Source: Mobula hypostoma
Lineage: Eukaryota
Assembly: GCF_963921235.1 (NCBI RefSeq)
Contig: NC_086107.1
Coordinates: forward strand, 105,154,001 to 105,218,000
Length of the DNA: 64,000 nucleotides
Reading direction: 5' to 3'
The first letter of the stretch is position 1. Each line of letters starts with the position of its first letter. The notes beneath the pieces were generated by a model. It saw nothing but the letters and a program-made list of their open reading frames with translations, made no database searches and had not been told where the DNA came from. The position numbers and the translations under genes are program-made. Shown piece by piece: positions 1,551-64,000 of the stretch.

Positions 1551-1688
1551 AAACACAATAGATTCTGCAGATGCTGGAAATCCAGAGCAACACGCACAAG
1601 ATGCTGGAGGAGCAATGCGAGGTCAGACAGCATCTATGGAGGGGAATAAACAGTCAACGTTTCGTGCTGAGACCCTTCATCAGGATTT
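1551..1688 (-). mobile_element. Penelope-derived short insert with decayed hammerhead motif
   Basis: Minus strand of 1651-1686 reads ATC-CTGATGA-AGGGTCTCAGCAC-GAAA-CG-TT-GACTG; the body matches the copies at 38052, 56858 and 63421. Confidence 0.8.
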
Positions 1689-2082: not shown

Positions 2083-2341
2083 TTCTAGGAAACTTCTACA
2101 GATACACATGGAGAGCATTTTGGCTGGTTGCATCAGTTAGCCAACTCCATCATGGGCACCAGCCTCCCCACCATCGATGACATCTGGCAATGCCTCAGAA
2201 AAGTGGCATCCATCATAAAGGCCCACACAGGACATGCCCTCTACCGTCAGAGAGGAGGTACAGGAGCCTGAAGACACAAAAACAATGTTTCTGGAACAGC
2301 TTCTTCCCCTCCACCATGAATGGTCAATGAACCCATGAACC

Positions 2342-4513: not shown

Positions 4514-5223
4514 TGCTTTCGGTAGACTGCGCTCCACTGTATGGGAACGCTGAGGAATCAGTCCAGCCACAAAACTGAAGGTCTACAGAGCCGTGGTACT
4601 CACTACCCTCCTGTATGCCTCTGAAACATGGACTGTGTATCGAAGGCATGCAAGACAGCTCAACCATTTCCACATGACCTGTCTTCGCAGAATATTAGGC
4701 ATCAGATGGCAAGACAAAGTACCAGACACTGAAGTTCTCTCTAGAGCAAGTCCACACATTGCTGATGACAGCACAGACCCGGTGGGCAGGTCATGTCATC
4801 CACATGCCGGACGAGCACGTACCCAAGCAGCTCCTTTTTGGGGAGCTCTTTGCTGGCAGACACTCGCATGGAGGGCAGAAGAAACGTTACAAAGACACAC
4901 TAAAGGCCTCCCTGAAGTCGCTTGACATAGACACGACCTCTTGGGAAACGCTGGCACAAAACCGCCCTACCTGGCGCGGCCTCATCCACGAGGGCTGTCA
5001 AGCTTACGAAGCAAGGCGCGTTGCTGAAACACAACATAAGCGCGAGCTGCACAAGTCCAGAGCCACCAGCGCAACAACTGCAGTGCCTAAACACGTCTGC
5101 CCAACATGTGCCAGGACATTCCGTGCCCGAATCGGCCTGACCAGTCATCTTCGGACACACCGCGTCCAGTCTCAAAGTGACTAATGGTGTCGCGGTCTTC
5201 ATCGACGACGATGGATGAACCAC
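4514..5223 (+). mobile_element. RTE-clade LINE, 5'-truncated, relatively young
   Basis: ORFs 4593-4925/4759-5184: LLYASETW, CLRRILGIRWQD, RWAGHV, GGQKKRYKD and C2H2 finger CPTCARTFRARIGLTSHLRTH; flanking direct repeat AACTGAAGTTC (4503-4513) / AACTAAAGTTC (5224-5234). Confidence 0.9.
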
Positions 5224-5633
5224 AACTAAAGTTCAGTGGTGGAGAGTATGTATCCACGGTGAATGGACAGTAACACCAAGACTTGGGCTTGACTTGAAAC
5301 ATTAAATCAGTTTCTCTGCAGAAAACCCCTGATCTGCCAAGTGTCCCCAAAATTTTCCATTTTGATCTCTGATGGGTTTATCCCATTTAGAATGATGATA
5401 ATGCCTCACGTTATGACATTGTTTTTTGTTTTCCATTTCCCCTGACATGCAAGGAAGACATGCAACCACTCATAGCAGTAAGTCCACTCTGGCGTCAGAG
5501 CAATCCACACCTAGTCCATAACCCAGTCCTTTTCACATGCCCATTAACACCACTTTGACTCTCCTAACACCCACTGAAGCTGGGATTAATTTACAGTAAC
5601 AGAACAACCAATAAAAATAGAAAAAAAAGAAAC

Positions 5634-6097
5634 TTCATAGAGTCATAGAGAAGTACAGCACAGAACCAGGCCATTTGGCCCATCTAGTTTATGTCAACTC
5701 TCTTTAAACTGTCTACTCCCATCGACCTGCACTGGGACCATAGCCCTCCATACCCCCTACCATCCTTTTGGAATCCTTTTTACTTATCTAATTTCTCCCT
5801 AACACTGAAATCAAACTTATATGCACCACTTGTGCTGGCAGTTCATTCCACACTCTCACGACCCTCTGAGTGAAGAGGTTTCCCCTCATGTTCCCCTTGA
5901 ACTTCTCACCTTTCTCCCTTAACCCATCACCTCTGGTTGTAGTCCCACTCAACCTCAGTGGAAAAAGCCTGTTTGCATTTACCCTACCTATACCCCTCAT
6001 AATTTTCTATACCTCTATCAAATACATTCCTAACCTATTCGATCTTTCCTTATAACTCAGGTCCTCCAGACCTGGCAACATCCTTGTAAATTTTCTC
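5634..6097 (-). mobile_element. CR1 LINE 3' end
   Basis: ORF 5788-6000 (GNMRGNLFTQRVVRVWNELP); tail CATAGAGTCATAGAG. Confidence 0.85.
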
Positions 6098-6754
6098 TGA
6101 ATGCTGGAAATCTAAAACAAGTACGGTAAATGCTAGTGATATGCGCAGGCCAGGCCACATTTGTGATTGGAGAAACAGAGTTAACTTTCATTTTGAACAA
6201 CGCTGGGTTCTGTTTCCAAAAACTCAGGATGGTAGTTTTGAATTCGTGATTGGACACACGTAGAGACCTTGGGTAAGCAGAGGTGGGAGGGAACTGACTC
6301 CTGATCTATTCACCCTCTCCAGCATCGTATGGTTCCCACCTCCAGTCATCTCAAAACCTGGAGAATTAGCGTGGAAACGATCATCCCCAATCCTGAGGGT
6401 CTGCTGGAGAAGAAGACTTAGCAGTCGCTGGACTATCATAGGGGATTGTTGAGGAGTGCTGCTCAGAGCAATGCCTCCAGAAGGAATTATCCATCATTAA
6501 GGACCCTCACCACCCAGGACATGTTGTCTTCTCACTACTACCATCAGGGAGGAGGTGCAGGGGCCTGAAGACCCACACTCAACGTTTTAAGGACAGCTTC
6601 TTCCCCGCCTCTATCAGATATCTGATTGGAGAATTTGCTTCTTTTTTATATTTCTTGTGGTAAAATTTTAATGTATTGCACTGTACTGCCACTGCAAAGC
6701 ATCACATTTCACAATGCATGTCGGTGATAATAAACCTGAATTTGATAATGAATC

Positions 6755-7165
6755 AGTACTGAGAGAGCGCTGCACTATCAGAGTGACTTTGCTGGAGTGC
6801 ACTGCAGTGCAGAGGGCTGCGGCTTTGGAGAGACAGTGCTGCAGAGGGCTGCGGCTTTGGAGAGACAGTGCTGCAGACGGCTGCAGTGTTGGACAGAGTT
6901 CTGTGGAGTTGCTGCAGTGTTGGACAGATAGTATTGTAGAGTGTTGTAGCATTGGGCAGACAGTACTGCACAGCACTGCAGTGATGAAAAGATAGTACTG
7001 AGCGAGCACTACAGTGTTGGACAGACAGTCCTGCAGAGAGCATTGCACTATTGGAGTACTGCAGGTGTGTTGCATGGCTGCTGTAATAGTACAAAACCAA
7101 TGCTCTGCTGTTGGGCGGGCGATGCTGAAGGAACATTGCATTGTCAGATGCACCACCTTCTGTGA
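6755..7165 (+). repeat. Highly degenerate ~33-bp array related to the 8.8-9.3 kb minisatellite, opposite orientation
   Basis: Recurring CAGTACTG/CAGTGCTG...GCTGCA.TGTTGGA.AGA units resemble the reverse complement of the CACTCCCTC.GTAC.G.CCC.CCG.CAGTG unit. Confidence 0.6.
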
Positions 7166-7272
7166 TAAATTTCCATAATTTGGCACAAGCATCCCATGCA
7201 GTTTAGACATTCTCTGGGTCCCTGACCTGTTTGCTTGAGACAGATAAATAAATGAACAAGTGAATTACTTAC

Positions 7273-7390
7273 AGTAAAGTTATGCGGATGCTGAAGGTCC
7301 CAAAGTGTCTGCTCTGTGCAGAGCTCGGAGAATGTCTGACTAATCCGTGGCCTCCCCTTTTAATACCCTCACTCCTAATCCTGTTTATCT
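7273..7390 (-). promoter_or_regulatory. Candidate TATA promoter and short non-coding first exon
   Basis: Minus strand: AGATAA (7390-7385), TATTAAAAGGGG (from 7365), Inr-like TCAGACATT ~26-34 nt downstream, donor ACT|GTAAGTAA at 7272. No downstream coding exon identified. Confidence 0.35.
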
Positions 7391-8799
7391 AGTGGTGACA
7401 CTGCTCCAGTTGGCAGTGCTAACACTTCACCTGGATTTCTCTCTCTTGGTCAGATGTAGAGGTTTGCTTTGGCAACCTGCCTGCGCCTTCCACCATCTGT
7501 TACTGAATAAAACACACAGACAGAAGGTGTCATTTACAAAGCTGCTATGTATCGAGAACAAGAACTTCTCCATTTATAATCCCTCACCCTGGGAATTAAT
7601 CAGTAGTTCCATCTTGTAACAAATCAAGAAGTTCCCTTTGTAACTCACTGGATGGTCAATTATCAGAGATGATCTTATATGGTTACAAAGGGTGGTACTG
7701 GTGGTTGCATTAGTTTAGATTTTGATCAGAGGCTACCTAACTCCACCATGGACTGTCCAAAGCCCAGCTGCAAAAGGAGGAGGGCTGGGCATGGGACCAG
7801 GAACCTCATCTCGTAAAAATCCAGAGCTACAAAAATAGCAACAGAAGCTCATCGCTGGGAGAGGAAGGATCTTCTCCTAGAAGATTGTCACTGTTTTTAT
7901 CTCTGCCGGGGAAGTGGGGTGGATTTTGGGGCTTGCGAGTTCTGATTCTTTTTCCCGGGGTGGGGAGAGTCAATGTCTTTTCTTTCAACAACTTTCTGTA
8001 TTTCATGGCTATCTGGAGAAGACGAATATCAGAGTTGTACTGTACATGCATACTTTGACAACAAAATGAAAATGAACCCTTTCAAGGTGAATGAAGCGGA
8101 AGCCATGCGGCCCACCAACCTTCTATCAGCCCGGGACGGAGGACTCTGGTGAGCTGCTCTCGGCGGCCTGTGCCCCAGTGGGGGTGAGTGGCTTGAGAAG
8201 AAGAAGTGGCTCCCTGTACATTGGGAAAAGATCAGCCAAGAGTGATAAAGAATTGCATTAATGTAGCTTCTTCAGCATCCATTCATGAACTGTGCTCACC
8301 TTTAACTCAAGGATATCCAGCAGACAATGAGTCACCTCAGCAATGAGTGGGTTCTGTTTTACAGATATCCATAAATCAGTTTTGTCCATGAGTCTAAAAA
8401 TGCACAAAAATCATTTTAGATAGTAACCGCAACTCCAGAGTGTTGTAATAAACAGTATCAAATGCACATAGGACCGAAAAGGAGTAACAATTCCTAAACG
8501 TGGAGAAAGAGGGGAAGCTGGTTCTGCCATTTATAGGAACAAACATATGCAGGTATGATCAATTTTGAATTTAATTTTATTTGGGAGCTCATTCGTATGT
8601 CGCAGTGTCCATCAGTCGGGCGTTTGTAACCCAGGGATGGCCTGTAGTTCTATCCCATGAGCACCAATGTGATACACCAATTGTGGGTTAAATTTTGGCT
8701 CGGCAGCCAGTATTCAAGAGAGCTTTCTTTTTCTTCTTTGGAATCTTTTAAGCCCACCTGAGGTCAAAAAAGAATTAGAGCAGCACTTGAAAGGTGGTC

Positions 8800-9335
8800 C
8801 CCTTGACAGTGTGGCACTCCCTCGGTACCGTCCCTCCGGCAGTGTGACACTCCCTCGGTACCGTCTCTCCAACAGTGACTCACTCCCTCGGTACCGTCCC
8901 TCCGGCAGTGTGACACTCCCTCGGTACCGTCCCCCCGGCAGTGAGACACTCCCTCGGTACCGTCCCCCCGGCAGTGTGACACTCCCTCGGTACCGTCCCC
9001 CCGGCAGTGAGACACTCCCTCGGTACCGTCCCCCCGGCAGTGAGACACTCCCTCGGTACCGTCCCCCCGGCAGTGAGACACTCCCTCGGTACCGTCCCCC
9101 CGGCAGTGAGACACTCCCTCGGTACCGTCCCCCCGGCAGTGAGACACTCCCTCGGTACCGTCCCCCCGGCAGTGAGACACTCCCTCGGTACCGTCCCCCC
9201 GGCAGTGTGACACTCCCTCGGTACCGTCCCCCCGGCAGTGAGACACTCCCTCGGTACCGTCCCCCCGGCAGTGTGACACTCCCTCAGTACCGTCCCTCGG
9301 ACAGTGAGATACTCCCTCAGTACTGTCCCTCCCAT
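8800..9335. repeat. 33-bp GC-rich minisatellite, ~16 units
   Basis: Unit CACTCCCTCGGTACCGTCCCCCCGGCAGTGWGA; homogeneous centre, degenerate edges; explains the repetitive 11-aa ORFs. Confidence 0.97.
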
Positions 9336-9647
9336 AGTCCTTGGAAAAGCAATGAGTTAACAGCCTGCTCCGTGCTGTATTGAGAAGCTCCAGCTGAGCA
9401 GGTTGTTCACTGAACACACTGATTACTTGTCAGTCTCTCTGCGTAGGTTTTCACTGATTCTGCAGTCTTTTCTGATCTACCGTAAATGCCCGCAAGAAAA
9501 TGAATCTCGAGGTTGGATATGGGGACATGTAAGTGCTTTGATAATAAATCAGTTCTGAACGTTGAACTTTAAGGTGGACGAGGTTAGCTCCAGAGACTCA
9601 TTGATGACAGCAAGCCTGAAAACAAGGCAATGAGGCTGCTGTGCGTA

Positions 9648-20278: not shown

Positions 20279-22135
20279 GATTCAAGTTTATTATCACCGG
20301 CATGTGACGTGAGGTTTGTTAACTTAGCAGCAGCAGTTCAATGCAATACATAATCTAGAAGAGAGAAAAAATAATAAAATAAAAATGATAATAATAAATA
20401 AACAAGTAAATCAATTACAGTGTATGTATATTGAATAGATTTTTAAAAGAAGTTCAAAAAACAGAAATACTGTATATTAAACAAAGTGAGGTAGTGTCCA
20501 AAGGTTCAACGTCCATTTAGGAATCTGATGGCAGAGGGGAGGAAGCTGTTCCTGAATCACTGAGTGTGTGCCTTCAGGCTTCTGTACCTCCTACCTGATG
20601 GTAACAGTGAGAAAAGAACATGCTCTGGGTGCTGGAGGACCTTAATAATGGACACTGCCTTTCTGAGACACCGCTCCCTAAAGATGTCCTGGGTACTTTG
20701 AAGGCTAGTACCCAAGATGGAGCTGACTAGATTTACAATCCTCTGCAGCTTCTTTCGGTCCTGTGCAGTAGCCCCTCCATACCAGACAGTGATGCAGCCT
20801 GTCAGAATGCTCTCCACGGTACAACTGTAGAAGTTTTTGAGTGTATTTGTTGACACGCCAAATCTCTTCAAACTCCTAATGAAGTATAGATGCTGTCTTG
20901 CCTTCTTTATAACTTCATCAATATGTTGGGACCAGGTTAGATCCTCAGAGATCTTGACACCCAAGAACCTGAAACTGCTCACTCTCTCCACTTCTGATCC
21001 CTCTATGAGGATTGGTATGTGTTCCTTTGTCTTACCCTTCCTGAAGTCCAAAATCAGCTCTTTTGTCTTCCTGACGTTGAGTGCCAGGTTGTTGCTGCAG
21101 CACCACTCCACTAGTTGGCATATCTCACTCCTGTACGCCCTCTCGTCACCACCTGAGATTCTATCAACAATGGTTGTATCGTCAGCAAATTTATAGATGG
21201 TATTTGAGCTATGCCTAGCCACACAGTCATGTGTAAATAGAGAGTAGAGCAGTGGGCTAGGCACACGCCCCTGAAGTGCGCCAGCATTGATCATCAGTGA
21301 GGAGGATATGTCATCACCAATCTGTACAGAGACTGTGGTCTTCCAGTTAGGAAGTCGAGGATCCAAGTGCAGATGGAGGTACAGAGGCCCATGTTCTGCA
21401 ACTTCTCAATCAGGATTGTGGGAATGATGGTATTAAATGCTGAGCTATAGTTGATGAACAGCATCCTGACATAGGTGGTCTAAAGCCGTGTGGAGAGCCA
21501 TTGAGATTGCATCTGCTGATGGCCTATTGTGGTGATAGGCAAATTGCAATGGGTCCAGGACCTTGCTGAGGCAGGAGTTCAGTCTAGTCATGACCAACAT
21601 CTCAAAGCATTTTATCACTGTCGATGTGAGTGCTACCGGGCAATAGTCATTAAGACAGTCCACATTATTCTTAATAGGCACTGGTATAATTGTTACCTTT
21701 TTGAAGCAAGTGGGAACTTCTACCCATAGCAGTGAGAGGTTGAAAGTGTCCTTGAATATACTCCCACTAGCTGGTTGGCTCAGGTTTTCAGAGCCTTACC
21801 AGATACTCCATCGGGACCTTCTGCCTTGCGAGGTTCACTCTCTTTAAAGATAGCCTAACATTGGCCTCTGTGATGGAGATCACGGGGTCATCAGGTGCAG
21901 CAGGGATCTTCACAGCAGTAGTTGTGTTCTCCCTTTCAAAGTGGGCATAGAAGGTGCTGAGTTCATCTGGTAGTGAAGCATCGCTGTCATTCATGCTATT
22001 GGGTTTCGCTTTGTAGGAAGTAATGTCTTGCAGACCCTGCCAGAGTTGTTGTGCATCCGATGTTGCCTCCAACCTCGTTTGAAATTGTCTCTTTGCCCTT
22101 GAAATAGCCCTCCGTAAATCATACCTGGTTTTCTG
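20279..22135 (-). mobile_element. Rex1/Babar LINE, 5'-truncated with RT domain
   Basis: ORF 20557-21366 (GALQG.V.SPLLYSLFTHDC, KFADDTTIV, FRFLGV.ISEDLTW); 21445-21681 (LNDY.PVALTS, LDPLQFAY); 21788-22168. Confidence 0.95.
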
Positions 22136-31119: not shown

Positions 31120-31211
31120 CACCTACAAAATGCTGGAGAAACTCAGCAGATCAGACAGCATCCATGGAGAGGAATAAAGAGCCGACATTTCGGGCTGAGA
31201 CCCTTCGTCAG
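31120..31211 (-). mobile_element. Penelope-derived short insert beginning at the hammerhead CUGA
   Basis: Minus strand CTGACGA-A-GGG-TCTCAG-CCC-GAAA-TG-TC; core intact, 5' arm of stem I missing. Confidence 0.8.
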
Positions 31212-38051: not shown

Positions 38052-38174
38052 AAACACGAGGAATTCTGCAGATGCTGGAAATTCAACCAACACACATCAA
38101 AGTTGCTGGTGAACGCAGCAGGCCAGGCAGCATCTCTAGGAAGAGGTACAATCAACGTTTCAGGCCGAGACCCT
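38052..38174 (-). mobile_element. Penelope-derived short insert truncated inside hammerhead stem II
   Basis: Near-identical to 63423-63546; flanked by AAGTGT at 38046-38051 and 38175-38180. Confidence 0.85.
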
Positions 38175-40084
38175 AAGTGTGTTGAAAGTAAAGGCGTGTG
38201 GGGGAGAAAAATGTGTAACATTGAATAGTTTTGGAAAATCTGTTTGACCCAGTGCCACCAGGGTCCTGAGGGTGCTGAGTTATCAGTTTTATTTTAATAA
38301 GATTTGTGAAATGGCGAGTCATTACCAAGATTAACCATTATAAAAATAAATATTCTTGTTAAAGCAGATTTATGATTACAGTTAATTGAAAATACTTCCC
38401 AAGGTGTGGGTAATTTCATATCCGGAAATAGAAATTCCTGCAAAATTCCTAATATTAACTAGAATTGCACATAATTTCTGAATGGAAATAACTGCAACTC
38501 CACAATTTTAATTTTTATTAATGTTTATATCAACTGAATGAAATACAACTGAGAAAAGCAAGGGATCTATAGTGAAATGTTAAAAAGGACCACATGCTTA
38601 ACACAGAGACAAACAAGATTAAAGCTTGTGATTTCTTGCTTTTGAAACTTTTACAAATACCCATTTAAAAAAGAAATCTGTTGTAAATGAGAGCATTACA
38701 CATACAAAAATGAACAGAAGCTGGTGAAGTTTTACAGATCTGTCATGTTCACACAGCTTTTTACTAGGGCACTACTTACTTAATGATTACCTGGCTATTT
38801 CTCTCTCTTGAGCTACAATGATTATTTCATAATGTGCTGTTCTTAAGTAACTGAATATTTATTTAGTGATAAAGTGCGGATTAGGCCCTTCCATCCCTTC
38901 CAGCCGTGCTGATTCAGCAACCTTGATTTAACCCTAACCAAATCACTGGACAACTTACATTGACCGAATAAACTACCTGGTACATCTTTGGGTATTGGGA
39001 AGAAATTGGAACATCAGCAGAAAAATCTATGATTTGCACAAACTTCTTGTGCACTTCAGTTTGCTGCCTCCTTCACAACTAGTCAAATCTTAAATGTATT
39101 GCAAGATCCCAGCACTATGTCACAGGTGCCTTCCAGTGCTGAAGTATATTGTGACTTTGTTCTCTTTCCATTTTAAAATTAGAAACAAATTCTATTATTG
39201 AACTGGCAAATTTTGTCTCTGTTTCCCTGATGAAAGAATGAAGGAGCTGTCAAGTAGAAATTGTGTACATATCCATGTCAGCAGCATTTCAAATAATGTA
39301 AAAATGATAATATAAAAATATTTTTCCCCACTATCTTTTGAACACTGAAAATCTTTACAAAGTCTGAGATCCAGCACAGAATAGAGCAATTAAAATTTAG
39401 AGCCATAGCTATCATCTTTAATTAATCAAATTCTTGATTTCTTCTTTCCTGAGATTTTGGTTGCAGGAGGGGCCACCCCCAAAAAACTAGCTCTTGGACT
39501 TGCAGGAATTGAATTAAGCAGGACTTAAGTGTTTGATTGAATCAAAACTAAATATTGGCATTCATTTTAATTCAGACAGGATGAAATTAAAATAAATTCT
39601 TACTCTTAATTGAGCTACAGAACTTTTTAAAAACTCCTATTTTCTTTGAACCAGACACGACAGACTTCAATGGCTAAATTTTTAGATCTAAATCCTTATA
39701 TTTCTATTCACAGATGATTAACCCTTCTAATTTCTCAAGTGTTTCCAGCCAAAATCTGTTAAAGTTGCCTTTTACATGCAACTGAAAAATTGTTAAGCCT
39801 AATGTAACATCTACAAATTTATTGTGCATTCATATACTTCAAACCAAATATAACTTACTCTAAAAGCCAAGCCCAGGACTGTATAAAATGTTAACAAGCA
39901 TCTCAGAAAGCTTTGAAGGCTTTAGTGCACAAGAATGCTAGAACCCATTGATCATATAAGGGCACAGATTCAAGCATATCCACATCAATCAGAATTCCAA
40001 CTACAAATCCCCTATAGCAGTTTTAAAAATTCCATTTGTTAGAGGACAATATATCTATTAAAGTTTGCAATTCAAATTTGCAGG

Positions 40085-41520
40085 AAGAAGTTTGTGAACC
40101 CTTTGCAATTGCCTGGTTTTCTGCATTAATTAGTCATAAAATGTGGTCTGATCTTCATCTAAGTATCTAAGTCACAATAACAGGCAAACACAATCTGTCT
40201 AAACTAATAACACACAAACAATTGTACTACTTCTCGTCAATACTGAGTGCACCATTTAAACAATCACAGTCTAGGTTCAAGAAAGTATGTGAACCTCTGG
40301 TGTAATGCCTTCTGCAAAAGCTATTTGGAGTCAGGTGTTCCAGTCAATGAGATGAGATTGAGTGTGTGGGTTGTAGAGGTGCCCTGCCCTGTAAAAAAGA
40401 CACACAAAATCAGTTTACTGACAGAGCCTGCTCTTCTCAAGAAAGATCTGTTTATTTCCACCATGCTTCGATCAAAACAACTTTCCGAGCAAATTAGAAG
40501 CATTTTAGAGATGCATGAAGCTGGAAAAGGCTGCAAGAGCATTTCTAAAGACCTGAGTGTTCATCAGTCCACAGTAAGAGAAATTGTCAACAAATGCAGG
40601 AAATTCAACACTGTTGCTACTCTCCCTGGGAGTGGAGTGGGCGTCATGCAAAGATCACACTAAGAGCACAATGTGCAACGCTGAAGGAAATGAAAAAGAA
40701 CCCAAGGGTAACAGCAAAAGACCTGAAGAAATCACTAGAATTTGCTAAAGTCTCTTCATGTGTCCACTATAAGAAAGACATTGAACAAGAATGGTGAACA
40801 AGGGAAAATTTGCAGATGCTGGAAATCTAAGCAACATACATAAAACGCTGGAAGAACTCAGCAGGTCAGGTACACCTATGGAGAAGAGTAAACAGTCAAA
40901 ATTCTGGGCTGAGACCCTTCATCATGTCTAAGTGTTCATGGAAGGACACCACAGAGGGATCAGAATCAAATTTATTATCACTGGCATGTGTCCTGGAACC
41001 ACTGCTCTCCAAAATAAAACATTGTTGCACATCTCAGGTTTGCAAAAGACCACCTGGATGTTCCACAATGCTTCTGGAACAATTTTCTGTGGACAGATGA
41101 GACAAAAGTTGAACTTTTTAGCAGAAATGCACACCGCAATGTTTGGAGGAAAAAGGGCGCTGCAAAACCAAAACCAAGACCTCATCTCAGCCATGAAGCA
41201 TGGTGGAAGGAGCACCATGGTTTAGGGCTGCTTTGCTGCCCCATGGCCTGGACAGCTTGCAATTGTTGAGAAAGCAATAAATTCTAAATTGTATCAAGAC
41301 ATTTTACAGGAGAATGTCAGGGTAGCGGTCTGTCACCTGAAGCTTAATAGAAGTTGGAAGATGCAACAAGGCAGTGATCCGAAACACAAGAGTAAATCAA
41401 CAACAGAATGGTTTAAAAAGAAGAAAATTTGTGATTTGGAATGGCCAAGTCAGAGTGCTGATCTTAACCCAATTGAGATGCTGTGGCATGGTCTGAAGGG
41501 GGCTGTTCATGTAAGGTATA
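40085..41520 (+). mobile_element. Tc1-family (DD34E spacing) transposon relic with two nested inserts
   Basis: Paired-like N-terminus (SKQLSEQIR..ILEMHEAGKG.KSISK), KHGG.S.MV, QQ[G]SDPKH...WPSQSADLNPIE with 34 residues between the mutated second D and E; direct repeat AAGT.TGTGAACC at ~40088 and ~40283; right end missing. Confidence 0.9.
40797..40931 (-). mobile_element. Penelope-derived short insert nested in the Tc1 transposase
   Basis: Tc1 sequence AAGAATGGTG resumes as GTGTTCATGGAAGGAC after the insert; the insert ends at GAGACCCTTCATCA (hammerhead segment). Confidence 0.85.
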
Positions 41521-43074
41521 ACAAATGTGGGTTGATACTGTTCAATGTCTTGTTGAAGTATTATTAATGGTGCTGTGGGAAAGAATGGAGCTCATAATTT
41601 TGTTGGCTGCTCAGGAGGGCGTTTACCTCATGTATCCTAGTCGTTAACAGCATATCTATTAGGTTTGAAAATAAAACCTCTAAAAGTATTAATGAGAAGT
41701 CTTTAATCTGAAATATTTACAGTTTCTCTTTTCACAGATGCTACCTGATCTGATGAGTTTGCCAGCATTTTAAGTTTCTGTATCTGCAAATTTCATTGGC
41801 TGTTTAATCCCAATTAATCTCCTTTCTTCAATTATTTTCACTGCTCTGTCACCAGAGGTGCCTCTAGGCTGACACTAATTAAGTGATTTCCTGTTGACAT
41901 TTTCTGTGATTGCACCTCTGTCTTTAATTGCCTTTGAAGCCTGTTTGAAGGCCTAAAAATCTTTGTTCAGTCTTCAAACTGTAAATTGGCAAATTCAGCC
42001 TTCTTTTCTATCTCTGTCTGGAACTAACTCATGCATAAAAAGTGAAGAGTGCTGCTTTAAATTTTTATTTACCTTCGCCTTTTAATTTTTACTATTTTAC
42101 CTTTTCTTTATCTTTAAATTTCTGCCTCACTTGGTTATTCTCCTTTTGACATTTCTCCATTTCTGTCAAAGATGAAGCAACTGTAGTAGCCTTTATTAAA
42201 TCATATAGCTTCAAGCATGTACTTACATTATATAACATTATTTATATCATATATGGGGCGACAGGGTTGATAAGAGGTTAGCGGAGTCACTTTACAGTAC
42301 AGGCCTTCACTGATTGGGGGTTCAATTGCCTCCGCTGTCTGTTAGGAGTTTATACATTCTCCCTGTGATCGCGTTGGCTTTCCTCTGGGTGCTCCAGTTT
42401 CTTCCCACATTCCAATGACGTATGGTTAGGGTTACTAAGTTGTGGGCATGCTATGTTGGTGCCAGAACTGTGGCAACACTTGTGGGCAGCCCCCAACACA
42501 ATCATCGCAGATTTTTATTTGACGCAAGCAACGTATTTCACTGGTATGTTTTTGATGTTTTGATGTACATGTGACAAAATAAAGTTAATCTTTAAAAAGA
42601 ACTTTTGTAATTGCCAAGTCTTGGCATCCTTTAATTGTTATGTTCAAATGTTTGCTGGCTTGCATAATTTTTACAGCGAACTGAAGCCCAATTAACAATC
42701 TTTATCTCCTACCTTGTTTGTGTCATAGACTTCTACCATTAACCGAGGAGTCCGTGGACCCCAGGTTGGGAACCCCTGTAATACATTGCTTCAGCACCAT
42801 TCACCTTTTGCTCATTTCTCCCATTGTTAGCAAGAATTTGTTGCAGTTCTCTAAAATCGTATTCTGACTTTATCCTGCATTTTAGTAGAATAGACACAGA
42901 ATGCTTGTTTGTTTTTTTATTAAAATAATTATTCCAGGAACAACAAGCAAGTTCTCAGAATCTGTTGATCAAGCTGAGCCAGAAACATGCACTGAATTCT
43001 AGACTTGGGATCCTGCCTCGCATGTTGGTCCTAGGTTTCTGGTACTGAACCAGCCGAGAACCTTGTTGCATATA

Positions 43075-56857: not shown

Positions 56858-56989
56858 AACAACAGGAATTCTGCAGATGCTGGAAATTCAAGCAACACAC
56901 ATCAAAGTTGCTGGTGAACGCAGCAGGCCAAGCAGCATCTGTAGGAAGAGGTGCAGTCGACGTTTCAGGCCGAGACCCTTTGTCAGGAC
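56858..56989 (-). mobile_element. 132-bp Penelope-derived insert with 10-bp target-site duplication
   Basis: TGAAACTGTA at 56848-56857 and 56990-56999 inside the Tc1 coding sequence. Confidence 0.92.
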
Positions 56990-56991
56990 TG
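56954..56991 (-). ncRNA. Minimal type I hammerhead ribozyme motif (G8>A variant)
   Basis: CAGUC-CUGACAA-AGG(GUCUCGG)CCU-GAAA-CG-UC-GACUG: 5-bp stem I, 3-bp stem II, palindromic ACGU in place of stem III. Confidence 0.7.
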
Positions 56992-58859
56992 AAACTGTAT
57001 TACGCAAGAAGGAAGCCATACATCAACTCTATGCAGAAACACCAGCGAGTTGTCTGGGCCCGAGCTCATCTCAGATGGACTGAAAGACTGTGGAACCGTG
57101 TGCTGTGCTCAGATGAGTCCACATTTCAGCTAGTTTTCGGAAAAAATGGGCGTCGAGTTCTCCATGCCAAAGATGAAAATGACCATCCAGATTGTTATCA
57201 GTGAAAGGTGCAAAAGCCAGCATCTGTGATGGTATGGGGGTGCATCAGTGCCCACGGCATGGGTGAGTTGCATGTATGTGAAGGTACCATTGACTCGAGG
57301 CGTATATTAGGATTTTAGAGAGACATATGTTGCCATCAAGGTGACGTCTCTTCCCGGGACATCCATGCTTATTTCAGCAGGACAATGCCAGACCACATTC
57401 TGCTCGGGCTACAACAGCGTGACTTTGTAGACACAGAGTGCGTGTGCTTGACTGGCCTGCTGCCAGTGCAGATCTATCTCCTATTGAAGATGATTGGCGC
57501 ATCATGAAGAGGAGAATCAGACAACGGAGACCACGGACTGTGGAGCAGCTGAAGTCTTATATCAAGCAAGAATGGACAAAATTTCCAATTGCAAATCTAC
57601 TACAATTAGTATCCTCAGTCCCAAAACGATTAAAAAGTGTTATTAAAAGGAAAGGTGATGTAACACAATGGTAAACATGCCTCTGTCCCAACTTTTGTTG
57701 AGTGTGTGCTAGCCATCAAATTCTAAATTTGTGTATGTTTACAAAATGCAATTAAGTTGGTCAGTAAAACTACTGAAAATCTTTTCTTTGTACTTTTGTC
57801 AGTTACATAAAGGTTCACGTGAATTAACATATCACAGATTTTTGTTTTTATTGCATTTTGGAAAATATCCCAACTTTTCTGGAAATGAGGTTTGTATTAA
57901 CATACTTATTTAGAGATACAGTGCAGAATAGGTCCTTCAAGCCCTTCCAAGTATGCCGCCCCAGCAACCCGACAACCCCGATTAACCTTAACCTAATAAC
58001 GGGACAATTTACAATGACCAGTCAACCTAGCCAGTATGTCTTTGAACTGCTTGATGAAACTGGAGCACCTGGGGAAAGCCCATGCATTCCACGGAGAGGA
58101 CATACAGAGACTCCTTGCACAATGGTGCTGGAATTGAACTCTGAACTCCGGAATGCACTGCGCTGTAATAGTGTCATGCTAACCACTACCATACTGTGGT
58201 GCCCAGAATACTGTTTGCTAGATTCTTTGGACAATATTGTATATATTAAATTTTTGGAGATGGTGTATTTTTAATCAGATTTTGGAAAGGTTTTGTGTGC
58301 TTAATTGAATGCTGAAGCCAGTATTTCACATTTAATTAAATTATGGAGATTATAATCATATTCTGAAGGTAGTGCAGTGTTTTAAAATTAACCTTATGTT
58401 GCATATTTAAATGGATCCCTAAGTCTATTTATTGAGATACAGCGTGGAATAGGCCCTTCCGACTCTTCCAGCCGTGTTGCCCAGCAACCCCCAATTTAAC
58501 CCTAGCCTAATCACAGGACACTTTACAGTGACCAATTAACCTACTAACCGGAAGTAGTATGACTTTGGAATGTGAGAAGAAACTGGAGCACCCAGAGAAA
58601 ACGCACGTATTCTGTCGGGAGGATGTACAGGTTCCTTAAAGATGATGCCAGAATTAAAGAACGAACTCCTGACACCCCAAGCTTTAATAGCATCATGCTA
58701 ACTACTACGCTACCATGGCATCTCATGCTGTGTATTCTGACAGGTTTTAGAGAAGGTCTTTGTATATAATCAAATTCCATTGACCTTGTTGCGTATCAGA
58801 TCAGATTCTGGTGTGGTGTATTTAATCAGATTTCGGCAACACTGCTGTAAGAAATAAAA

Positions 58860-61850
58860 ATCATAGTGGACGACATAGCTACTTGAGCTTGCCCTGGCAT
58901 TCGGTAAATCCATACTTGAAACGGTTTTCCTTATATCCAGTTTCTCTCCCTATGTTCATAGTCTTTGGTTTCCTAACTGATTAAAAAGATCTTATTTATA
59001 TCAGCTTTAAATATGATCAAGGGTTCAGCTTCCATAGCTTTCTGGGGTGAGGAATTCCAAAGACTCCCCTCTCTCAGATCTTTTTGAAAAGTTATTCTTC
59101 CTCACTTTGGTCTTAAAGCAGTTCCTTCTGTCTCCATGATGATACTCTTTGGTCGTAGACTCTCCCACAAGGGAAGCATCCTCCCTGCGTTAACTCTGTT
59201 AAGCCCCCTCAGAAAACTTTCATCTTCTGGTAACTTTGCTTTTCATTTTTCTAAACTCCACTGAGTACAGATGCAAACGTTTCAACCTTTCATTATAGAA
59301 CTTGGGATCATCTTGTGAACCTTATCTGAGTAGCTTTCAATGGTAATATATCTTTCCTTTAATAGGTGAGCCAAAACTGTACTCTACATTGTCTCATTGG
59401 TGCGTCGTGTAGTTAGAGTGAGACTTGCCCATTTTCATACCCAAATTACATACCCAAATCTACGTGAAGTAAAAAACAGCAATTTTTTTTTTAGCCGTTC
59501 TGACTAGTTGCTGGTGGTATTCTGTGATTTGTGTACAAGGATATCCAAGCTCTTTGTTCTGCAGTTTTCAGCCATCTTTGTGTGCTTAAGTAATAATCTG
59601 TTTTATCATTTTCCCATCTGATATGAATAGCTTCACTTTTTCCCTATTAAGCTTCTGTAAACTGTTGTATCATTCATATAGCTTTCTGGTACTTTAGTAT
59701 CATCTGTATATTTGCCAAATCATTGGTACATATTGTAAACACCAAGCAGGGTGGCCAACTTGGAAATGCCCCCTTTAGCCCTACTTACTCATTAGCCAGT
59801 CCTCTACCCACAATCCCCTATCATGCAAAGTACTTTTTGTATGGCACCTTGCCAAATCACTTATGAAAATCCAGATTATTACATGTACTGGTCTGCTCGA
59901 CTCATTGCAATGATACTTCCTCAGACAACTGTAATTTTGTTTTGTCAGATGTGATTTCTCCTTATATAACCATATAACAATTACAGCACGGAAACAGGCC
60001 ATCTTGGCCCTTCTAGTCTGTGCCGAACTCCTACTCTCACCTAGTCCCACCAACCTGCACTCAGCCCATAACCCTCCATTCCTTTCCTGTCCATATATCT
60101 ATCCAATTTAACTTTAAACAACAACATCGAACCTGCCTCAACCACTTCTGCTGGAAGCTCGTTCCACACAGCTACCACTCTCTGAGTAAAGAAGTTCCCC
60201 CTCATGTTACCCCTAAACTTTTGTCCTTTAACTCTCAACTCATGTCCTCTTGTTTGAATCTTCCCCACTCTCAATGGAAAAAGCCTATCCATGTCAACTC
60301 TGTCAATCCCCTTCATAATTTTAAACACCTCTATCAAGTCCCCCCTCAACCTTCTACGCTCCAAAGAATAAAGACCTAACTTGTTCAACCTTTCTCTGTA
60401 ACTTAGGAGATGAAACCCAGGCAACATTTTAGTAAACCTCCTCTGTACTCTCTCAATTTTATTGACATCTTTCCTATAATTGGGTGACCAGAACTGCACA
60501 CAATACTCCAAATTTGGCCTCACCAATGCCCTATACAATTTCAACATTACATCCCAACTCCTATACTCAATGCTCTGATTAATAAAGGCCAGCATACCAA
60601 AAGCTTTCTTCACCAGCCTATCCACATGAGATTCCACATTCAACGAACTATGCACCATTATTCCTAGATCCCTCTGTTCTACTGCATTCTTCAATGTCCT
60701 ACCATTTACCATGTATGTCCTATTTTGATTAGTCCTACCAAAATGTAGCACCTCACATTTTTCAGCATTAAACTCCATCTACCATTTTTCAGCCCACTCT
60801 TCTAACTGGCCTAAATCTCTCTGCAAGCCTTGAAAACCTACTTCATCATCCACAACGCCACCTATCTTAGTATCATCTGCATACTTACTAATCCAATTTA
60901 CCTCCCCATCATCCAGATCATTAATATATATGACAAACAACATTGGACCCAGTACAGATCCCTGAGCACACCGCTATACACCATCCTCCAATCTGACACA
61001 CAGTTATCCACCACTACTCTCAGGCGACTCCCATCTAGCCACTGCTGAATCCATTTTACTACTTCCATATTAGTGCCTAACGACTGAACCTTCCTAACGA
61101 ACCTTCCGTGTGGAACCTTGTCAAAGGCCTTACTGAAGTCCATATAGACAACATCCACTGCTTTACCCTCGTCAACTTTCTTAGTAACCTCATCAAAAAA
61201 TTCAGTAAGATTTGACAAGCATGACCTTCCACGCACAAATCCATGTTGACTGTTCCTAATCAGACTCTGTCTATCTAGATAATTATATATACCATCTCTA
61301 AGAATACTTTCCATCAATTTACCCACCACTGACGTCAAACTCACAGGCCGATAATTGCCAGGTTTACTCTTAGAACCCTTTTTAAACAATGGAACCACAT
61401 GAGCAATACGCCAATCCTCCGGCACCATCCCCGTTTCTAATGACATTTGAAATATTTTTGTCAGAGCCCCTGCTATTTCTACACTAACTTCCCTCAAGGT
61501 CCTAGAGAATATCTTGTCCCTCATGAAGCAATGCTGACTTGAGTGATCATATTTTCGTTTTCAAAATGCATTACTGTTACTTCCTTATTGTTTCCAACAT
61601 TTTTCCAAAATAAATGTTAGGTTGACTGGAGTATTGTTACTTGCTTTTTGGTTTCCATACTTTTTGCGTAAAGACATCACATTGGTATTTTTCTGATCCT
61701 AGGGTTCTTTTTCCACAATGTAAGGATTTCTTCGAGATTAGAACCAATACATGTGCTGTCTCTGTAATCACCTCCTTTAGGATGCAAAATGTCGGGCCTG
61801 GGACATTGTCAAGCTTTTCATTTGTCAGCCCTATTAATTTGTTCAAAGCT
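58860..61850 (-). mobile_element. Old CR1 interrupted by a younger CR1
   Basis: Decayed CR1 motifs at 58860-59960 continue at ~61520 (CATGAAGCAATGCTGACT). Confidence 0.7.
59964..61518 (-). mobile_element. Young CR1 LINE, 5'-truncated, near-intact RT
   Basis: ORFs 60898-61524 (PGNYRPVSLTS, QHGF, YMDFSKAFDKV) and 60041-60778; (ATATAACC) tail. Confidence 0.95.
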
Positions 61851-62419: not shown

Positions 62420-63335
62420 TGAAGGGAGACAAATCTTTTGAGGCCTGATCAACTCTATCTAATATGCTCTGGGAAGCTAGAGAAGAAATTGCAGGAGTCC
62501 TGGGTGAGATAGGACAAGTGGGGTGCTGGAAGACTGGAAAGTAGCTAATCTCGTGGCTTTACTTAAGAAGGGTTACAAAGAAAAGCATCTGGGTAGGTAA
62601 GTTACTGGAGGGAATTCTGAGGGATAAGCTATGCATGCATTTGGAAAGACAGGAGTTGGCTAGGGATAGACAGCATGACTTATCATAATGGAGATAATTT
62701 CTTTAAAATAAAATAGAGATTTTGAAGAAATTCGATGAAGGCAGGATGGTAAATGTAGTTTGTATGAACTATATCAAGGCATCTGATAAGGTCCCATTTG
62801 TAGCCTGGTTTGGAAAGTTAGAGCACATGGGATCCAGGAAGAGACATCTAACTGCATGTAGAATTGACTTGATGGTAGGATGCAAAGGGTTATGATAGGT
62901 TGTCTTTTGGACTGGAGCCTGTGACAAAGGTGCCTGAGAAGTTGGTGCTGGGCTTATTGTTGTTTATCATCTATATCAGTGATTTGAATGACAATGTATG
63001 AGGCATAGTTAGTAGGTGACGCACGGTTTCACATGACAGGAAAATAAGTGGTGCCAGAGTGAAGAAGCTTTTCTGGAGATATGGTAAGATCTTGATCAAC
63101 TGGGTAAGTGGGCTGTGGATTGGCAAATGAAGTGTAATTCAGGTAAGTGCAAGGTTTTGCAATTAGGAAGTCAAACCAGGGTAGGACGTTGACATTGAAT
63201 AGTAATGCCCTAGGGAGTGTTGTAGAACAGACACACCATGTCTACAAATATTAGTTCCTTGAAAGTGGTGTTACTGGCAGACAGGTGATAAAGAAGGATT
63301 TTGACATGCTGATTTTTATTAGTTAGGACACGATT
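62420..63335 (+). mobile_element. Old CR1 RT fragment
   Basis: EDWKVAN, KA.DKV and FN..KCKVL-like remnants. Confidence 0.75.
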
Positions 63336-63420
63336 ATTAGGAACCTGAGGGGCAGCTTTTTCAAATAGATGAATCAAAGTTCAAAGTACATTTATTATTA
63401 AACTGTATGCTGTATACAAT

Positions 63421-64000
63421 CACAAACACGAGGAATTCTGCAGATGCTGGAAACTCGAGCAACACACATCAAAGTTGCTGGTGAACGCAGCAGGCCAGGC
63501 AGCATCTCTAGGAAGAGGTACAGTCGACATTTCAGGCTGAGACCCTTCGTCAGGACTAATTGAAGAATGAGCTAGTAAGAGATTTAAAAGTGGGAGGGGG
63601 AGGGGGAGATCCAAAATGATAGGAGAAGACAGGAGGGGGAGGGATGGAGCCAAGAGCTGGACAGGTGATTGGCAAAAGGGATATGATAGGATCATGGGAC
63701 AGGAGGCCCAGGGAGAAGGAAAAGGGGGAGGGGGGGAAAGCGCAGAGAATGGGCAAGGGGTATAGTCAGAGGGACAGAGGGAGAAAAAGGAGAGTGAGAG
63801 AAAGAGTGTGTGTATATAAATAATGGATGGGGTATAAGGGGGAGGTGGGGCATTAGCGGAAGTTAGAGAAGTCAATGTTCATGCCATCAGGTTGGAGGCT
63901 ATAAACACATTCTTTCTCTCACTCGCCTTTTTCTCCCTCTGTCCCTCTGACTATACCCCTTGCCCATCCTCTGGGCTTTCTCCCCCTCCCCCTTTTCCTT
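63421..64000 (-). mobile_element. Penelope-like element 3' region with an adjoining inverted partial copy (63901-64000, runs off the window)
   Basis: Minus strand SLQPDGMNIDFSNFR* endonuclease end plus 3' region; 63901-64000 is the reverse complement of ~63716-63815. Confidence 0.9.
63522..63557 (-). ncRNA. Minimal type I hammerhead ribozyme motif, catalytic core intact
   Basis: AGUC-CUGACGA-AGG(GUCUCAG)CCU-GAAA-UG-UC-GACU: CUGANGA and GAAA cores, GUC cleavage triplet, stem I AGUC/GACU. Confidence 0.8.

What the first reader, a model, noticed from the sequence alone, without database searches (positions are those of the whole stretch)
63522..63557. Minimal hammerhead ribozyme in the Penelope-like 3' region
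Seen: the minus strand has the complete core CUGACGA / GAAA / GUC with stem I (AGUC:GACU) and stem II (AGG:CCU). Stem III is reduced to AUGU here and to palindromic ACGU in the copies at 1651, 38150 and 56954. Established: Penelope-like elements carry minimal type I hammerheads whose palindromic stem III favours cleavage as dimers. Inference: this genome carries a high-copy ribozyme family, and this is the best-preserved copy in the window.
Basis: partly seen in the sequence, partly recalled or inferred. Interest (0 to 1): 0.8.

Follow-up and report, generated by a model that had tools for sequence, protein, structure and literature searches.

The report
Penelope retrotransposon minimal hammerhead, decayed copy
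These 36 bases are a real copy of the small "minimal hammerhead" RNA motif that Penelope-like jumping genes carry near their tail end, lying in a dead, truncated insertion in a genome with tens of thousands of such copies, so it is ordinary; it is predicted to cut RNA only when paired with a second copy, and this decayed copy likely no longer can.

Summary
The minus strand 63557..63521 reads AGUC-CUGACGA-A-GGGUCUCAGCCU-GAAA-UG-UC-GACUG. This is a helix-III-less type I hammerhead motif.

It lies 295 nt after the stop codon remnant of a 5'-truncated Penelope-like element (PLE). That family encodes a reverse transcriptase followed by a GIY-YIG nuclease, with a Neptune-type CX4CX2C linker.

The copy is one arm of an 834-bp head-to-head double insertion. 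The insertion is flanked by a 9-13-bp target duplication and runs past the window's end.

The family is very large:
- 107,306 tails in the genome.
- 44,581 undecayed hammerhead 35-mers.
- 194 exact copies of the window's 37-mer.

The "AUGU" helix III is not a design variant. The sister arm and 50 of 58 family copies have ACGU, so this copy carries post-insertion CpG decay. It is the only copy in the window that still passes a full descriptor.

Rfam's hammerhead models do not score it. Cleavage is untested.

None of the 66 sampled family copies begins at the predicted cleavage site. Instead, 24 of 66 begin inside or just before the motif's 5' half.

The kind is already published (Cervera and de la Pena 2014). 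This scan has already reported it several times on other DNA of the same genome.

The parts
63521..63557 (-). Minimal (helix-III-less) type I hammerhead motif. Helix I is 63557-63554 paired with 63525-63522, plus the U63558.G63521 wobble.
   Evidence: Read directly. Passes the descriptor, with 0 hits in the reversed control. Exact 37-mer occurs 194 times in the genome.
63547..63553 (-). Core box CUGACGA (C3-A9; N7 = C).
   Evidence: In the unbiased sample N7 takes all four bases (C 26, T 19, A 8, G 2), while its neighbours are nearly fixed.
63534..63546 (-). Bulged A (63546) followed by helix II and loop GGGU-CUCA-GCCU. 11.1 is U here, giving a G.U pair. The loop reads CA where the family has CG.
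   Evidence: Bulge A is invariant in 55 of 55 copies. The loop position is G in 49 of 58 family copies.
63526..63533 (-). GAAA, then U15.2 G16.2, then U16.1 C17. Predicted cleavage falls between 63526 and 63525. The family has C15.2 (ACGU).
   Evidence: The majority base at 63529 in laid contigs is the ACGU form: 303,457 of 330,568 depth in run X1.
63421..63899 (-). Arm A: a 479-nt 5'-truncated PLE copy. It contains the ORF end, the 3' UTR, the hammerhead, 63 nt to the short 3' end, and a 37-nt tail.
   Evidence: nhmmer match to model positions 1-468, 512.9 bits. Alignment with 22 other copies.
63853..63899 (-). Remnant of the RT/GIY-YIG open reading frame: the last 15 codons (...SLQPDGMNIDFSNFR) and the stop.
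   Evidence: Same ending as the 679-codon frame of L007, which has RVT_1 and GIY-YIG matches. The 33-mer occurs 30,919 times in the genome.
63421..63457 (-). Optional 37-nt 'tail' extension, present on arm A and absent from arm B.
   Evidence: 23-24 of 60 sampled copies have it.
63900..64000 (+). Arm B: an inverted sister copy joined head to head. It runs 254-258 nt beyond the window end. Its hammerhead has ACGT but GUG at the cleavage site.
   Evidence: 359 nt align to arm A with 15 mismatches, 6 of them at CpG. Sequence.
63408..63420 (.). Left copy of the target-site duplication TGCTGTATACAAT. The right copy lies 255-267 nt past the window end. Nine bases are certain and four overlap the element's own end.
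   Evidence: Longest shared direct repeat between the two flanks.
56954..56990 (-). Sister copy with ACGU but G8->A. It starts about at the motif's 5' edge and is inserted in a Tc1/mariner relic.
38150..38177 (-). Sister copy truncated inside the 5' core, so it lacks CUGANGA.
31184..31211 (-). Copy from an older subfamily. Core boxes are intact and it reads AUGU, but helix I is disrupted.
1651..1687 (-). Old copy with ACGU and U17 but broken helices. It is joined head to head with 1728-1854 (+).

Best explanation
The flagged bases are a minimal, helix-III-less type I hammerhead motif in the 3' untranslated tail of a dead, 5'-truncated Penelope-like retrotransposon copy; in the family's source elements the motif would likely cleave the transcript after GUC, and only when two copies pair through the palindromic ACGU or when the element's protein assists.

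Shown directly:
- The motif and its register.
- Its place 295 nt after the stop of an RT/GIY-YIG frame, 63 nt before the short 3' end and 100 nt before the long 3' end.
- The head-to-head two-arm insertion with one target duplication.
- The huge copy number.
- The fact that this copy's AUGU, loop CA and (at subfamily level) U11.1 are CpG transitions relative to its sister arm and family.

Inferred from published work on other PLEs:
- Self-cleavage as a dimer (Cervera and de la Pena 2014).
- Protein-assisted cleavage that is dispensable for insertion in vitro (Frangieh et al. 2024).

Inferred here:
- This particular copy is catalytically impaired. The AUGU self-duplex is predicted at +1.2 kcal/mol against -3.1 for ACGU.
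- It has no role at this locus.
For: Motif and significance: 26-27 descriptor sites, 0 in reversed controls; 194 against 0.

Link to a PLE:
- Arm A carries the ORF end.
- The same ORF end closes a 679-codon frame in L007 with RVT_1 (24.5 bits, E 2.5e-5) followed by GIY-YIG (20.5 bits, E 6e-4) and a CX4CX2C linker.
- The nearest Atlas clusters carry HTH_animal/DUF8422/RVT_1/GIY-YIG at 0.98.
- Tandem units of 3,517 and 3,617 nt occur in L002 and L004.
- There is an optional 37-nt tail.

Family size: 107,306 tails, 59,789 upstream 30-mers, 30,919 ORF ends, 44,581 undecayed 35-mers.

Decay: the sister arm has ACGT and loop CG. Family counts are C15.2 in 50 of 58 and loop G in 49 of 58.

Constraint at family level: in a mixed-age unbiased sample, non-CpG core positions differ from the majority in 36 of 516 cells. 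The 3' flank differs in 572 of 3,597 cells (Fisher p 1.3e-8). The copies are related, so this p is too small.

Second family: an unrelated low-copy family at L001:5166-5209 keeps the same core, a bulged base, G10.1-(C/U)11.1 and ACGU, with entirely different helices I and II.

The features match the published list (bulge between 9 and 10.1, G10.1-C11.1, palindromic 15.2-16.2) in PMC4209133.
Against: - No cleavage data exist for this family.
- Rfam hammerhead models give no match at gathering score or at E<=10.
- Both Pfam domain matches are below their curated cut-offs.
- Within the large family, helices I and II hardly vary, so no compensatory change is visible there. Covariation rests on one second family.
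- CpG decay is symmetric at G12, 15.2/16.2 and C17/G1.1 (T:A = 28:23, 19:18, 22:17), so the genomic copies themselves evolve neutrally.
- None of 66 tail-anchored copies (plus 6) and none of the 67 nhmmer hits in the random sample begins at the predicted cleavage site. Cleaved RNA therefore leaves no footprint as a template.
- The predicted monomer ground state is a rod in which GACG of the core pairs with CGUC at the cleavage site (-11.0 against -7.0 kcal/mol for the hammerhead-like fold).
Confidence: 0.88

Rival explanations
1. The motif is kept in the family mainly for something other than self-cleavage. It could mark the 5' boundary of the RNA that is copied (a transcription start at or just before helix I). 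It could instead be a protein-bound or RNA-RNA pairing site where reverse transcription tends to end and switch templates. On either reading cleavage would be incidental.
For: 5' starts of 66 tail-anchored copies (plus 6 long copies), in model positions where the motif is 332-368:
- 26 at position 16 or lower.
- 14 spread over 78-312.
- 24 within 324-352.
- 2 at 370 (duplicates of each other).
- None at 362-366.

15 of the 24 are fused head to head with a second arm. 1,400 loci have two motif 5' halves facing each other across 0-30 nt. A YYAGTCC initiator-like word overlaps helix I, and an AT-rich box sits about 25-32 nt upstream in several diverged subfamilies (read).

Frangieh et al. report that hammerhead mutants do not change insertion in vitro and that no RNA-seq reads end at the cut site.
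Against: - The junction positions are spread over about 30 nt rather than sitting at one base.
- No RNA ends could be examined.
- In D. virilis Penelope the start site lies upstream of an intron that ends at helix I.
- Exact conservation of all catalytic positions is most simply explained by catalysis.
- nhmmer start points are approximate, by a few bases.
Confidence: 0.25
2. The short hammerhead-plus-tail modules (about 100-137 nt) are a separate non-autonomous element, retrozyme-like or SINE-like, that borrows the PLE machinery. On this reading the window copy belongs to that class rather than to the autonomous element.
For: About a third of family tails start at the motif (24 of 66). Tails (107,306) outnumber the segment 75 nt upstream (59,789) by 1.8 to 1. 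A 2026 preprint argues that vertebrate retrozymes derive from PLE pLTRs (abstract and passages only).
Against: - The window copy itself extends 342 nt upstream of the motif, through the 3' UTR into the ORF end, so it is a truncated autonomous copy.
- The short copies are identical in sequence to the tails of long copies.
- None of the sampled copies forms the head-to-tail arrays that define retrozymes. Only one direct pair was seen, and it shows its own target duplication (L044).
Confidence: 0.07
3. Chance resemblance: a repeat that happens to contain CUGANGA and GAAA.
For: Rfam models do not recognise it.
Against: - 0 hits in shuffled and reversed controls.
- Every published accessory feature is present in the family.
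- A second family has different helices.
- The motif sits in the element class and position where it is known to occur.
Confidence: 0.01

Closest known systems
Minimal hammerheads (min-HHR) in the pseudo-LTRs of metazoan Penelope-like elements (Cervera and de la Pena 2014, PMC4209133; parts 1-2 of 4 read)
   Same: Same core boxes and the same short open helix I (4-5 bp). Same unpaired base between A9 and 10.1, and G10.1-C11.1 in half of the copies. No helix III, with a palindromic 15.2-16.2 (ACGU). Mostly single, truncated copies, and pairs on opposite strands 100-700 bp apart. The paper names Neptune, Poseidon and Xena elements of fishes as carriers.
   Different: Helix II is short (3-4 pairs), against 6-8 in the schistosome and fly examples. 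Copy number is far higher than the 2,000-9,000 quoted there. This large family is unusually uniform rather than 'full of covariations'. The window copy has lost the palindrome.
Poseidon element PAc of Anolis carolinensis (Frangieh et al. 2024, PMC11167929; parts 1-2 of 4 read)
   Same: The hammerhead lies a short way 5' of two adjacent reverse-transcription start sites. The spacing of those sites gives an optional 30-40-nt tail: here the short and long ends are 37 nt apart, 67 and 104 nt after the predicted cut. Both DNA strands are used, which fits the two-armed insertions seen here. No footprint of cleaved RNA is found.
   Different: In PAc the motif overlaps the ORF start. Here no ORF start overlaps it (the only ATG just downstream runs 16 codons to a stop, read). 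The linker is Neptune-type, not Poseidon-type. Nothing here was tested biochemically.
EN+ PLE insertion architecture: partial tandems, an inverted 5'-truncated copy, and a tail at one end (Craig et al. 2021, PMC8557442; passages only)
   Same: Heavy 5' truncation, tandem units and a head-to-head inverted arm inside one target duplication. The tail is on one arm only: 12 of 12 pairs examined have one long and one short end.
   Different: None of note. The CX4CX2C linker read in L007 fits the CX2-5CxxC motif given there for the Neptune and Nematis clades.
Non-LTR retrozymes of animals (Cervera and de la Pena 2020, PMC7229834, search listing only; Li et al. 2026 preprint, abstract and passages)
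   Same: Type I hammerheads of PLE ancestry in short non-coding units.
   Different: Retrozymes are head-to-tail arrays that give circular RNAs and carry hammerheads with a helix III. The copies here are dispersed or head to head, and lack helix III.
Rfam hammerhead families (Hammerhead_1 and relatives)
   Same: Same catalytic core and type I topology.
   Different: No match to any of them at gathering score or at E<=10.

Membership tests
PLE minimal hammerhead (min-HHR) | Core boxes CUGANGA, GAAA and U-H at the right spacing | tested here: met
PLE minimal hammerhead (min-HHR) | Short open helix I (type I topology) | tested here: met
   AGUC:GACU plus a U.G wobble, 5 pairs.
PLE minimal hammerhead (min-HHR) | Unpaired base between A9 and 10.1, and a G10.1-C11.1 pair | tested here: met
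   Bulge A in 55 of 55 copies. 11.1 is C in 31 of 63 and T in 28 of 63 copies. The window copy has G.U.
PLE minimal hammerhead (min-HHR) | No helix III, with palindromic 15.2-16.2 that allows a dimer helix | tested here: inconclusive
   The family meets it: ACGU in 50 of 58 copies, and 44,581 undecayed 35-mers. The window copy does not: AUGU, with a predicted self-duplex of +1.2 kcal/mol against -3.1 for ACGU.
PLE minimal hammerhead (min-HHR) | Lies in the terminal repeat or 3' region of a PLE | tested here: met
PLE minimal hammerhead (min-HHR) | Covariation between consensus families | tested here: inconclusive
   No compensatory change within the large family. One second family has wholly different helices and the same core.
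PLE minimal hammerhead (min-HHR) | Self-cleavage after H17 | not testable with these tools
   Only contig-level runs of guessed RNA type were on offer.
Rfam Hammerhead_1 and other Rfam hammerhead models | Score at or above the family's gathering threshold | tested here: not met
   0 matches at gathering score. No hammerhead model at E<=10 on 1,001 nt or on 81 nt.
Endonuclease-bearing Penelope-like element | One frame with reverse transcriptase followed by a C-terminal GIY-YIG nuclease | tested here: met
   In L007:2018-4054, RVT_1 covers residues 170-332 and GIY-YIG covers 582-656. Both are below Pfam cut-offs (24.5 against 29.6 bits; 20.5 against 22.6 bits). Atlas clusters agree.
Endonuclease-bearing Penelope-like element | Partial tandems (pseudo-LTR), an inverted 5'-truncated copy, an optional 30-40-nt tail, and a target duplication | tested here: met
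Neptune/Nematis-type PLE | CX2-5CxxC motif between RT and nuclease | tested here: met
   C-KRNK-C-YT-C read in the L007 translation. The motif definition comes from passages of PMC8557442. No phylogeny was made.
Non-LTR retrozyme | Head-to-tail arrays of short units, each with a hammerhead | tested here: not met
   The window copy is an arm of an inverted pair. No array appears among the 60 sampled copies.

The most novel reading that the evidence does not exclude
The hammerhead's 5' half is the preferred end point of this family's cDNAs: a third of all copies begin there, most of them fused head to head, and none begins at the cut site. The motif may therefore work in vivo as the boundary of the copied RNA rather than as a processing ribozyme. 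That boundary could be a transcription start on the initiator-like YYAGTCC word that forms helix I. It could instead be an RNA-RNA or protein-bound site where the two reverse transcriptions of a two-ended insertion stop and join.
Probability: 0.3. Interest if true: 0.55.

Novelty: already known. Interest (0 to 1): 0.18.

Why it matters
As a find it is ordinary. Minimal hammerheads in PLE tails, fish elements included, were described in 2014, and this scan has already reported the same family in this genome.

Its value is as material. A single genome offers 44,581 undecayed copies and over 100,000 dated relics of one min-HHR. This allows the open question of what PLE hammerheads are for to be asked from genomic footprints.

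The footprint seen here has no copies starting at the cut site and a pile-up at the motif's 5' edge. It agrees with the in vitro report that cleavage is dispensable for insertion. It also points to a testable alternative role.

Tried and rejected
- **Rfam.** Gathering-score search on the whole window gave nothing. E<=10 searches on 63000-64000, on 63500-63580 and on the second family gave no hammerhead model. The sub-threshold plant microRNA hits at 63749-63966 are the palindrome of the two PLE arms.
- **Pfam on frames beyond the window end.** Twelve frames of the 10 kb past the window gave nothing. The expected upstream ORF is absent because the copy is truncated and joined to its inverted sister.
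- **Pfam on window frames.** 63 frames were scanned. No PLE frame was found, only LINE-type RT pieces and Tc1/mariner pieces elsewhere in the window.
- **Solved structures.** A search with the L007 protein gave one meaningless hit, E 0.11.
- **RNA evidence.** No RNA holder was listed. All 22 runs are Logan contigs of guessed type. Laying four of them gave majority bases but no molecule ends, so neither expression nor cleavage could be addressed.
- **Folding of the 142-nt motif-to-tail stretch.** It is no more stable than shuffles (z +1.14).
- **Test for selection within dead copies.** In the young family set the core (3.6%) is no better kept than the 3' flank (2.9%). This is expected for relics.
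- **CpG asymmetry.** Only N7/G8 is asymmetric (19 T against 5 A, binomial p 0.007), and subfamily inheritance can explain that.
- **A single-base transcription start at A332.** Considered, but the junction gaps are too spread out to support it.
- **Hairpin self-priming at helix I or helix II as the source of the mini-palindromes.** Rejected. The predicted spacing between the two tail anchors (about 44 nt) does not fit the observed 62-69 nt (one search list).
- **Literature.** A search for 'Penelope-like' + 'shark' + 'hammerhead ribozyme' returned one review. No supplements of any paper were opened, so the supplementary figures of PMC4209133 may show fish families that I have not seen.

Full report
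**What is there.** Read on the minus strand from 63557 to 63521, the sequence is AGTC CTGACGA A GGGTCTCAGCCT GAAA TG TC GACTG. All three hammerhead core boxes are present at the right spacing.
- Helix I is AGUC:GACU, extended by a U.G wobble to five pairs.
It can also be read as a bulged A followed by G.U, G-C, G-C, U.G.
- There is no helix III. A15.1 and U16.1 enclose only U-G.

**Not chance.**
- The box pattern occurs twice in the window and never in 100 shuffles.
- A structural descriptor that I wrote finds 26 sites in the 573,220 nt I held and none in the reversed control. With relaxed rules it finds 27 sites and again none in the control.
- The exact 37-mer occurs 194 times in the 3.48-Gb genome, against 0 for its backward control.
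- No Rfam model reaches its gathering score anywhere in the window. No hammerhead model appears even at E<=10 on 1,001 or 81 bases. Those models expect a helix III.

**What it belongs to.** Upstream of the motif, arm A continues through a CT-rich stretch to 63899. There it reads ...SLQPDGMNIDFSNFR followed by a stop. That 33-base ORF end occurs 30,919 times in the genome with at most one mismatch.

I fetched 20 loci around such ORF ends, holding 22 copies of the ORF end.
- In one of them the same stop closes a 679-codon frame.
- That frame has a reverse-transcriptase match (RVT_1, 24.5 bits, E 2.5e-5) followed by a GIY-YIG match (20.5 bits, E 6e-4).
- It also has a C-X4-C-X2-C linker before the nuclease.
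- Both domain scores are below Pfam's cut-offs.
- The order RT then GIY-YIG in one frame is the hallmark of endonuclease-bearing Penelope-like elements.
- The protein's nearest Atlas clusters carry HTH_animal, DUF8422, RVT_1 and GIY-YIG at 0.98.
- The linker fits the CX2-5CxxC motif given for the Neptune and Nematis clades (passages of PMC8557442).
- Two loci hold tandem units of 3,517 and 3,617 nt.

All 22 copies plus the window copy align from the stop through about 300 nt of UTR to the hammerhead and beyond.

**The locus.** Arm A (63899 to 63421, minus strand) abuts at 63899/63900 an inverted sister copy, arm B. Arm B runs on the plus strand to about 254-258 nt beyond the window's end.
- The arms align over 359 nt with 15 mismatches, 6 of them at CpG sites.
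- The flanks share the 13-base direct repeat TGCTGTATACAAT at 63408-63420 and at 255-267 nt past the window end. Nine of these bases are unambiguous target duplication.
- This is therefore one old 834-bp two-armed insertion.
- Arm A ends with a 37-nt extension that arm B lacks.

The architecture matches what is described for PLEs: heavy 5' truncation, an inverted truncated copy at the 5' end, and a 30-40-bp tail at one end (passages of PMC8557442). Frangieh et al. traced the tail to two adjacent reverse-transcription start sites (PMC11167929, parts 1-2).

**This copy is decayed.**
- Arm B, made in the same event, has GGGTCTCGGCCTGAAACGTG. So arm A's loop CA and its AUGU arose after insertion by CpG transitions. 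Arm B in turn lost the cleavage-site C.
- Among 58 family copies anchored only on the tail, 15.2 is C in 50 and the loop position is G in 49. 11.1 is T in 32 and C in 25.
- In laid contigs the ACGU form holds 303,457 of 330,568 depth at 63529 in run X1.
- Genome-wide there are 44,581 copies of the undecayed 35-mer, allowing Y at N7 and at 11.1.
- ViennaRNA gives the AUGU self-duplex +1.2 kcal/mol against -3.1 for ACGU.
- It also predicts that a monomer prefers a rod in which GACG of the core pairs with CGUC at the cut site, at -11.0 against -7.0 kcal/mol for the hammerhead-like fold.

The window copy is still the only one of the window's copies that passes the full descriptor. A fifth copy, at 31184, was missed.

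**Is the motif under constraint?** I took 40 stretches of 10 kb at round coordinates on ten contigs. With the window and its neighbour this makes 474 kb, and a profile of the tail found 67 hits in it.
- Of these hits, 43 cover all 37 motif columns, 17 keep all core boxes, and 10 pass the descriptor.
- In this mixed-age set, non-CpG core positions differ from the majority in 36 of 516 cells, stems in 71 of 686, the 3' flank in 572 of 3,597 and the 5' flank in 210 of 999.
- Core against 3' flank gives Fisher p 1.3e-8. The copies are related, so this p-value overstates the case.
- N7 takes all four bases, while the bulged A (55 of 55) and U16.1 (61 of 61) never vary.
- Against selection on the relics themselves, CpG decay is symmetric at G12, at 15.2/16.2 and at C17/G1.1. 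In the young family set the core (3.6%) is no better kept than the 3' flank (2.9%).
- Helices I and II barely vary across subfamilies, so there is no covariation inside this lineage.
- A second, low-copy family lies 5 kb beyond the window (L001:5166-5209; 14 copies with at most 2 mismatches). It has the same core, a bulged U, a 7-pair helix II, ACGU and a quite different helix I.

**How it likely works.** These steps are taken from published work and were not tested here.
- Cervera and de la Pena found that such motifs do not cut as monomers and cut weakly as dimers or trimers. They proposed processing of tandem transcripts.
- Frangieh et al. found the Anolis element's hammerhead to cut only with the element's protein present. 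Core mutants left insertion unchanged, and no RNA-seq reads ended at the cut site.

My genomic footprint agrees with the second paper. I examined 66 of the first 67 family tails listed.
- 60 were fetched.
- 6 were already held as long copies.
- 1 was cut by a locus end and not evaluated.

In model positions, with the motif at 332-368, the copies start as follows:
- 26 at position 16 or lower.
- 14 scattered over 78-312.
- 24 within 324-352.
- 2 at 370 (duplicates of each other).
- None at the cut site (363/364).

None of the 67 random-sample hits starts at the cut site either.

**The pile-up at the motif's 5' half.**
- The density of 5' ends is about 14 times higher over 324-352 than over the 235 nt before it.
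- Fifteen of those 24 copies are fused head to head with another arm.
- 1,400 loci have two motif 5' halves facing each other across 0-30 nt.
- Counts of 30-mers tell the same story: 107,306 just after the motif against 59,789 at 75 nt before it.
- In 12 of 12 two-armed insertions that I could score, one arm has the long tail and the other the short end.

I cannot tell whether the pile-up marks RNA 5' ends, a stop or switch point of reverse transcription at a folded, protein-bound or paired motif, or something else.
- For RNA 5' ends: an initiator-like YYAGTCC word overlaps helix I, and an AT-rich box lies about 25-32 nt upstream (read).
- Against a single start: the junctions are spread over about 30 nt.
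- No RNA ends could be examined.

**Comparison and verdict.** Every defining feature of the published PLE min-HHR is met by the family. The window copy fails only the palindrome, through decay. Cleavage is untested.

Minimal hammerheads in Neptune, Poseidon and Xena elements of fishes are in print. Earlier notes of this scan describe the same family on other pieces of this genome, including head-to-head insertions inside one target duplication. I re-tested those points on this locus and they hold.

The finding is correct and ordinary. The only open thread is the 5'-edge pile-up.

Noticed in passing
L001:5166-5209 (+), about 5.2 kb beyond the window's end: A second, unrelated minimal hammerhead family: TTGCA CTGATGA T GTTGCCT-AGCT-AGGTAAT GAAA CG TC TGCAA. 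It has 14 copies in the genome with at most 2 mismatches. Two copies have C at 11.1, which restores G10.1-C11.1. Its carrier element was not identified.
   Followed up: partly
Family copies genome-wide (loci L062-L121; window 56954-56998 and 38150-38177): The 5' ends of tail-anchored copies pile up within or just before the hammerhead's 5' half (24 of 66), and none starts at the predicted cut site. 15 of the 24 are fused head to head. 1,400 loci have two motif 5' halves 0-30 nt apart.
   Followed up: partly
Window 63421-63899 with L001:1-258; L003, L007, L014, L015, L016, L020; L063/64, L084/85, L090/91, L097/98, L103/104: In 12 of 12 two-armed insertions, one arm ends with the 37-nt tail and the other at the short end. 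In L017 the second arm is the tail alone (model 431-467). In L107 and L070 the second arm is only the last 10-11 nt of the tail. This would fit one RNA templating both arms from its two start sites.
   Followed up: partly
Window 63749-63966: Sub-threshold Rfam hits to plant microRNA precursors (MIR1858 at 68.7 bits against a gathering score of 137, and others). They are caused by the long palindrome of the two inverted PLE arms and do not indicate a microRNA.
   Followed up: yes
Window 63558-63590 (minus strand) and the same stretch in family copies: Directly 5' of helix I lies a pyrimidine tract ending in CAG, which looks like a splice acceptor. This recalls the D. virilis Penelope intron, which ends at helix I. 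The same bases also fit an initiator-like word.
   Followed up: no
Window 63538: The laid contigs list no T>C difference at 63538, although 49 of 58 family copies have G (minus strand) at that loop position. This is unexplained and may be an effect of how short repeat contigs were laid.
   Followed up: no
Window 63521-63558 and L036: The predicted monomer ground state is a rod in which GACG (core positions 5-8) pairs with CGUC (15.2-17), hiding both the core and the cut site. It scores -11.0 against -7.0 kcal/mol for the hammerhead-like fold.
   Followed up: partly
Window 40247-41567 (+), 20557-21405 (-), 60898-61560 (-), 8673-9429: Other repeats in the window: Tc1/mariner pieces (HTH_SB, DDE_3), LINE-type RT pieces (one with an ALKBH8_N match), and a low-complexity stretch that gives spurious Pfam matches in several frames.
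   Followed up: no
L044:3900-4210: A short family copy is inserted next to another copy, with its own GTAGATTT duplication. This is an example of insertion into or beside the element's own sequence.
   Followed up: no
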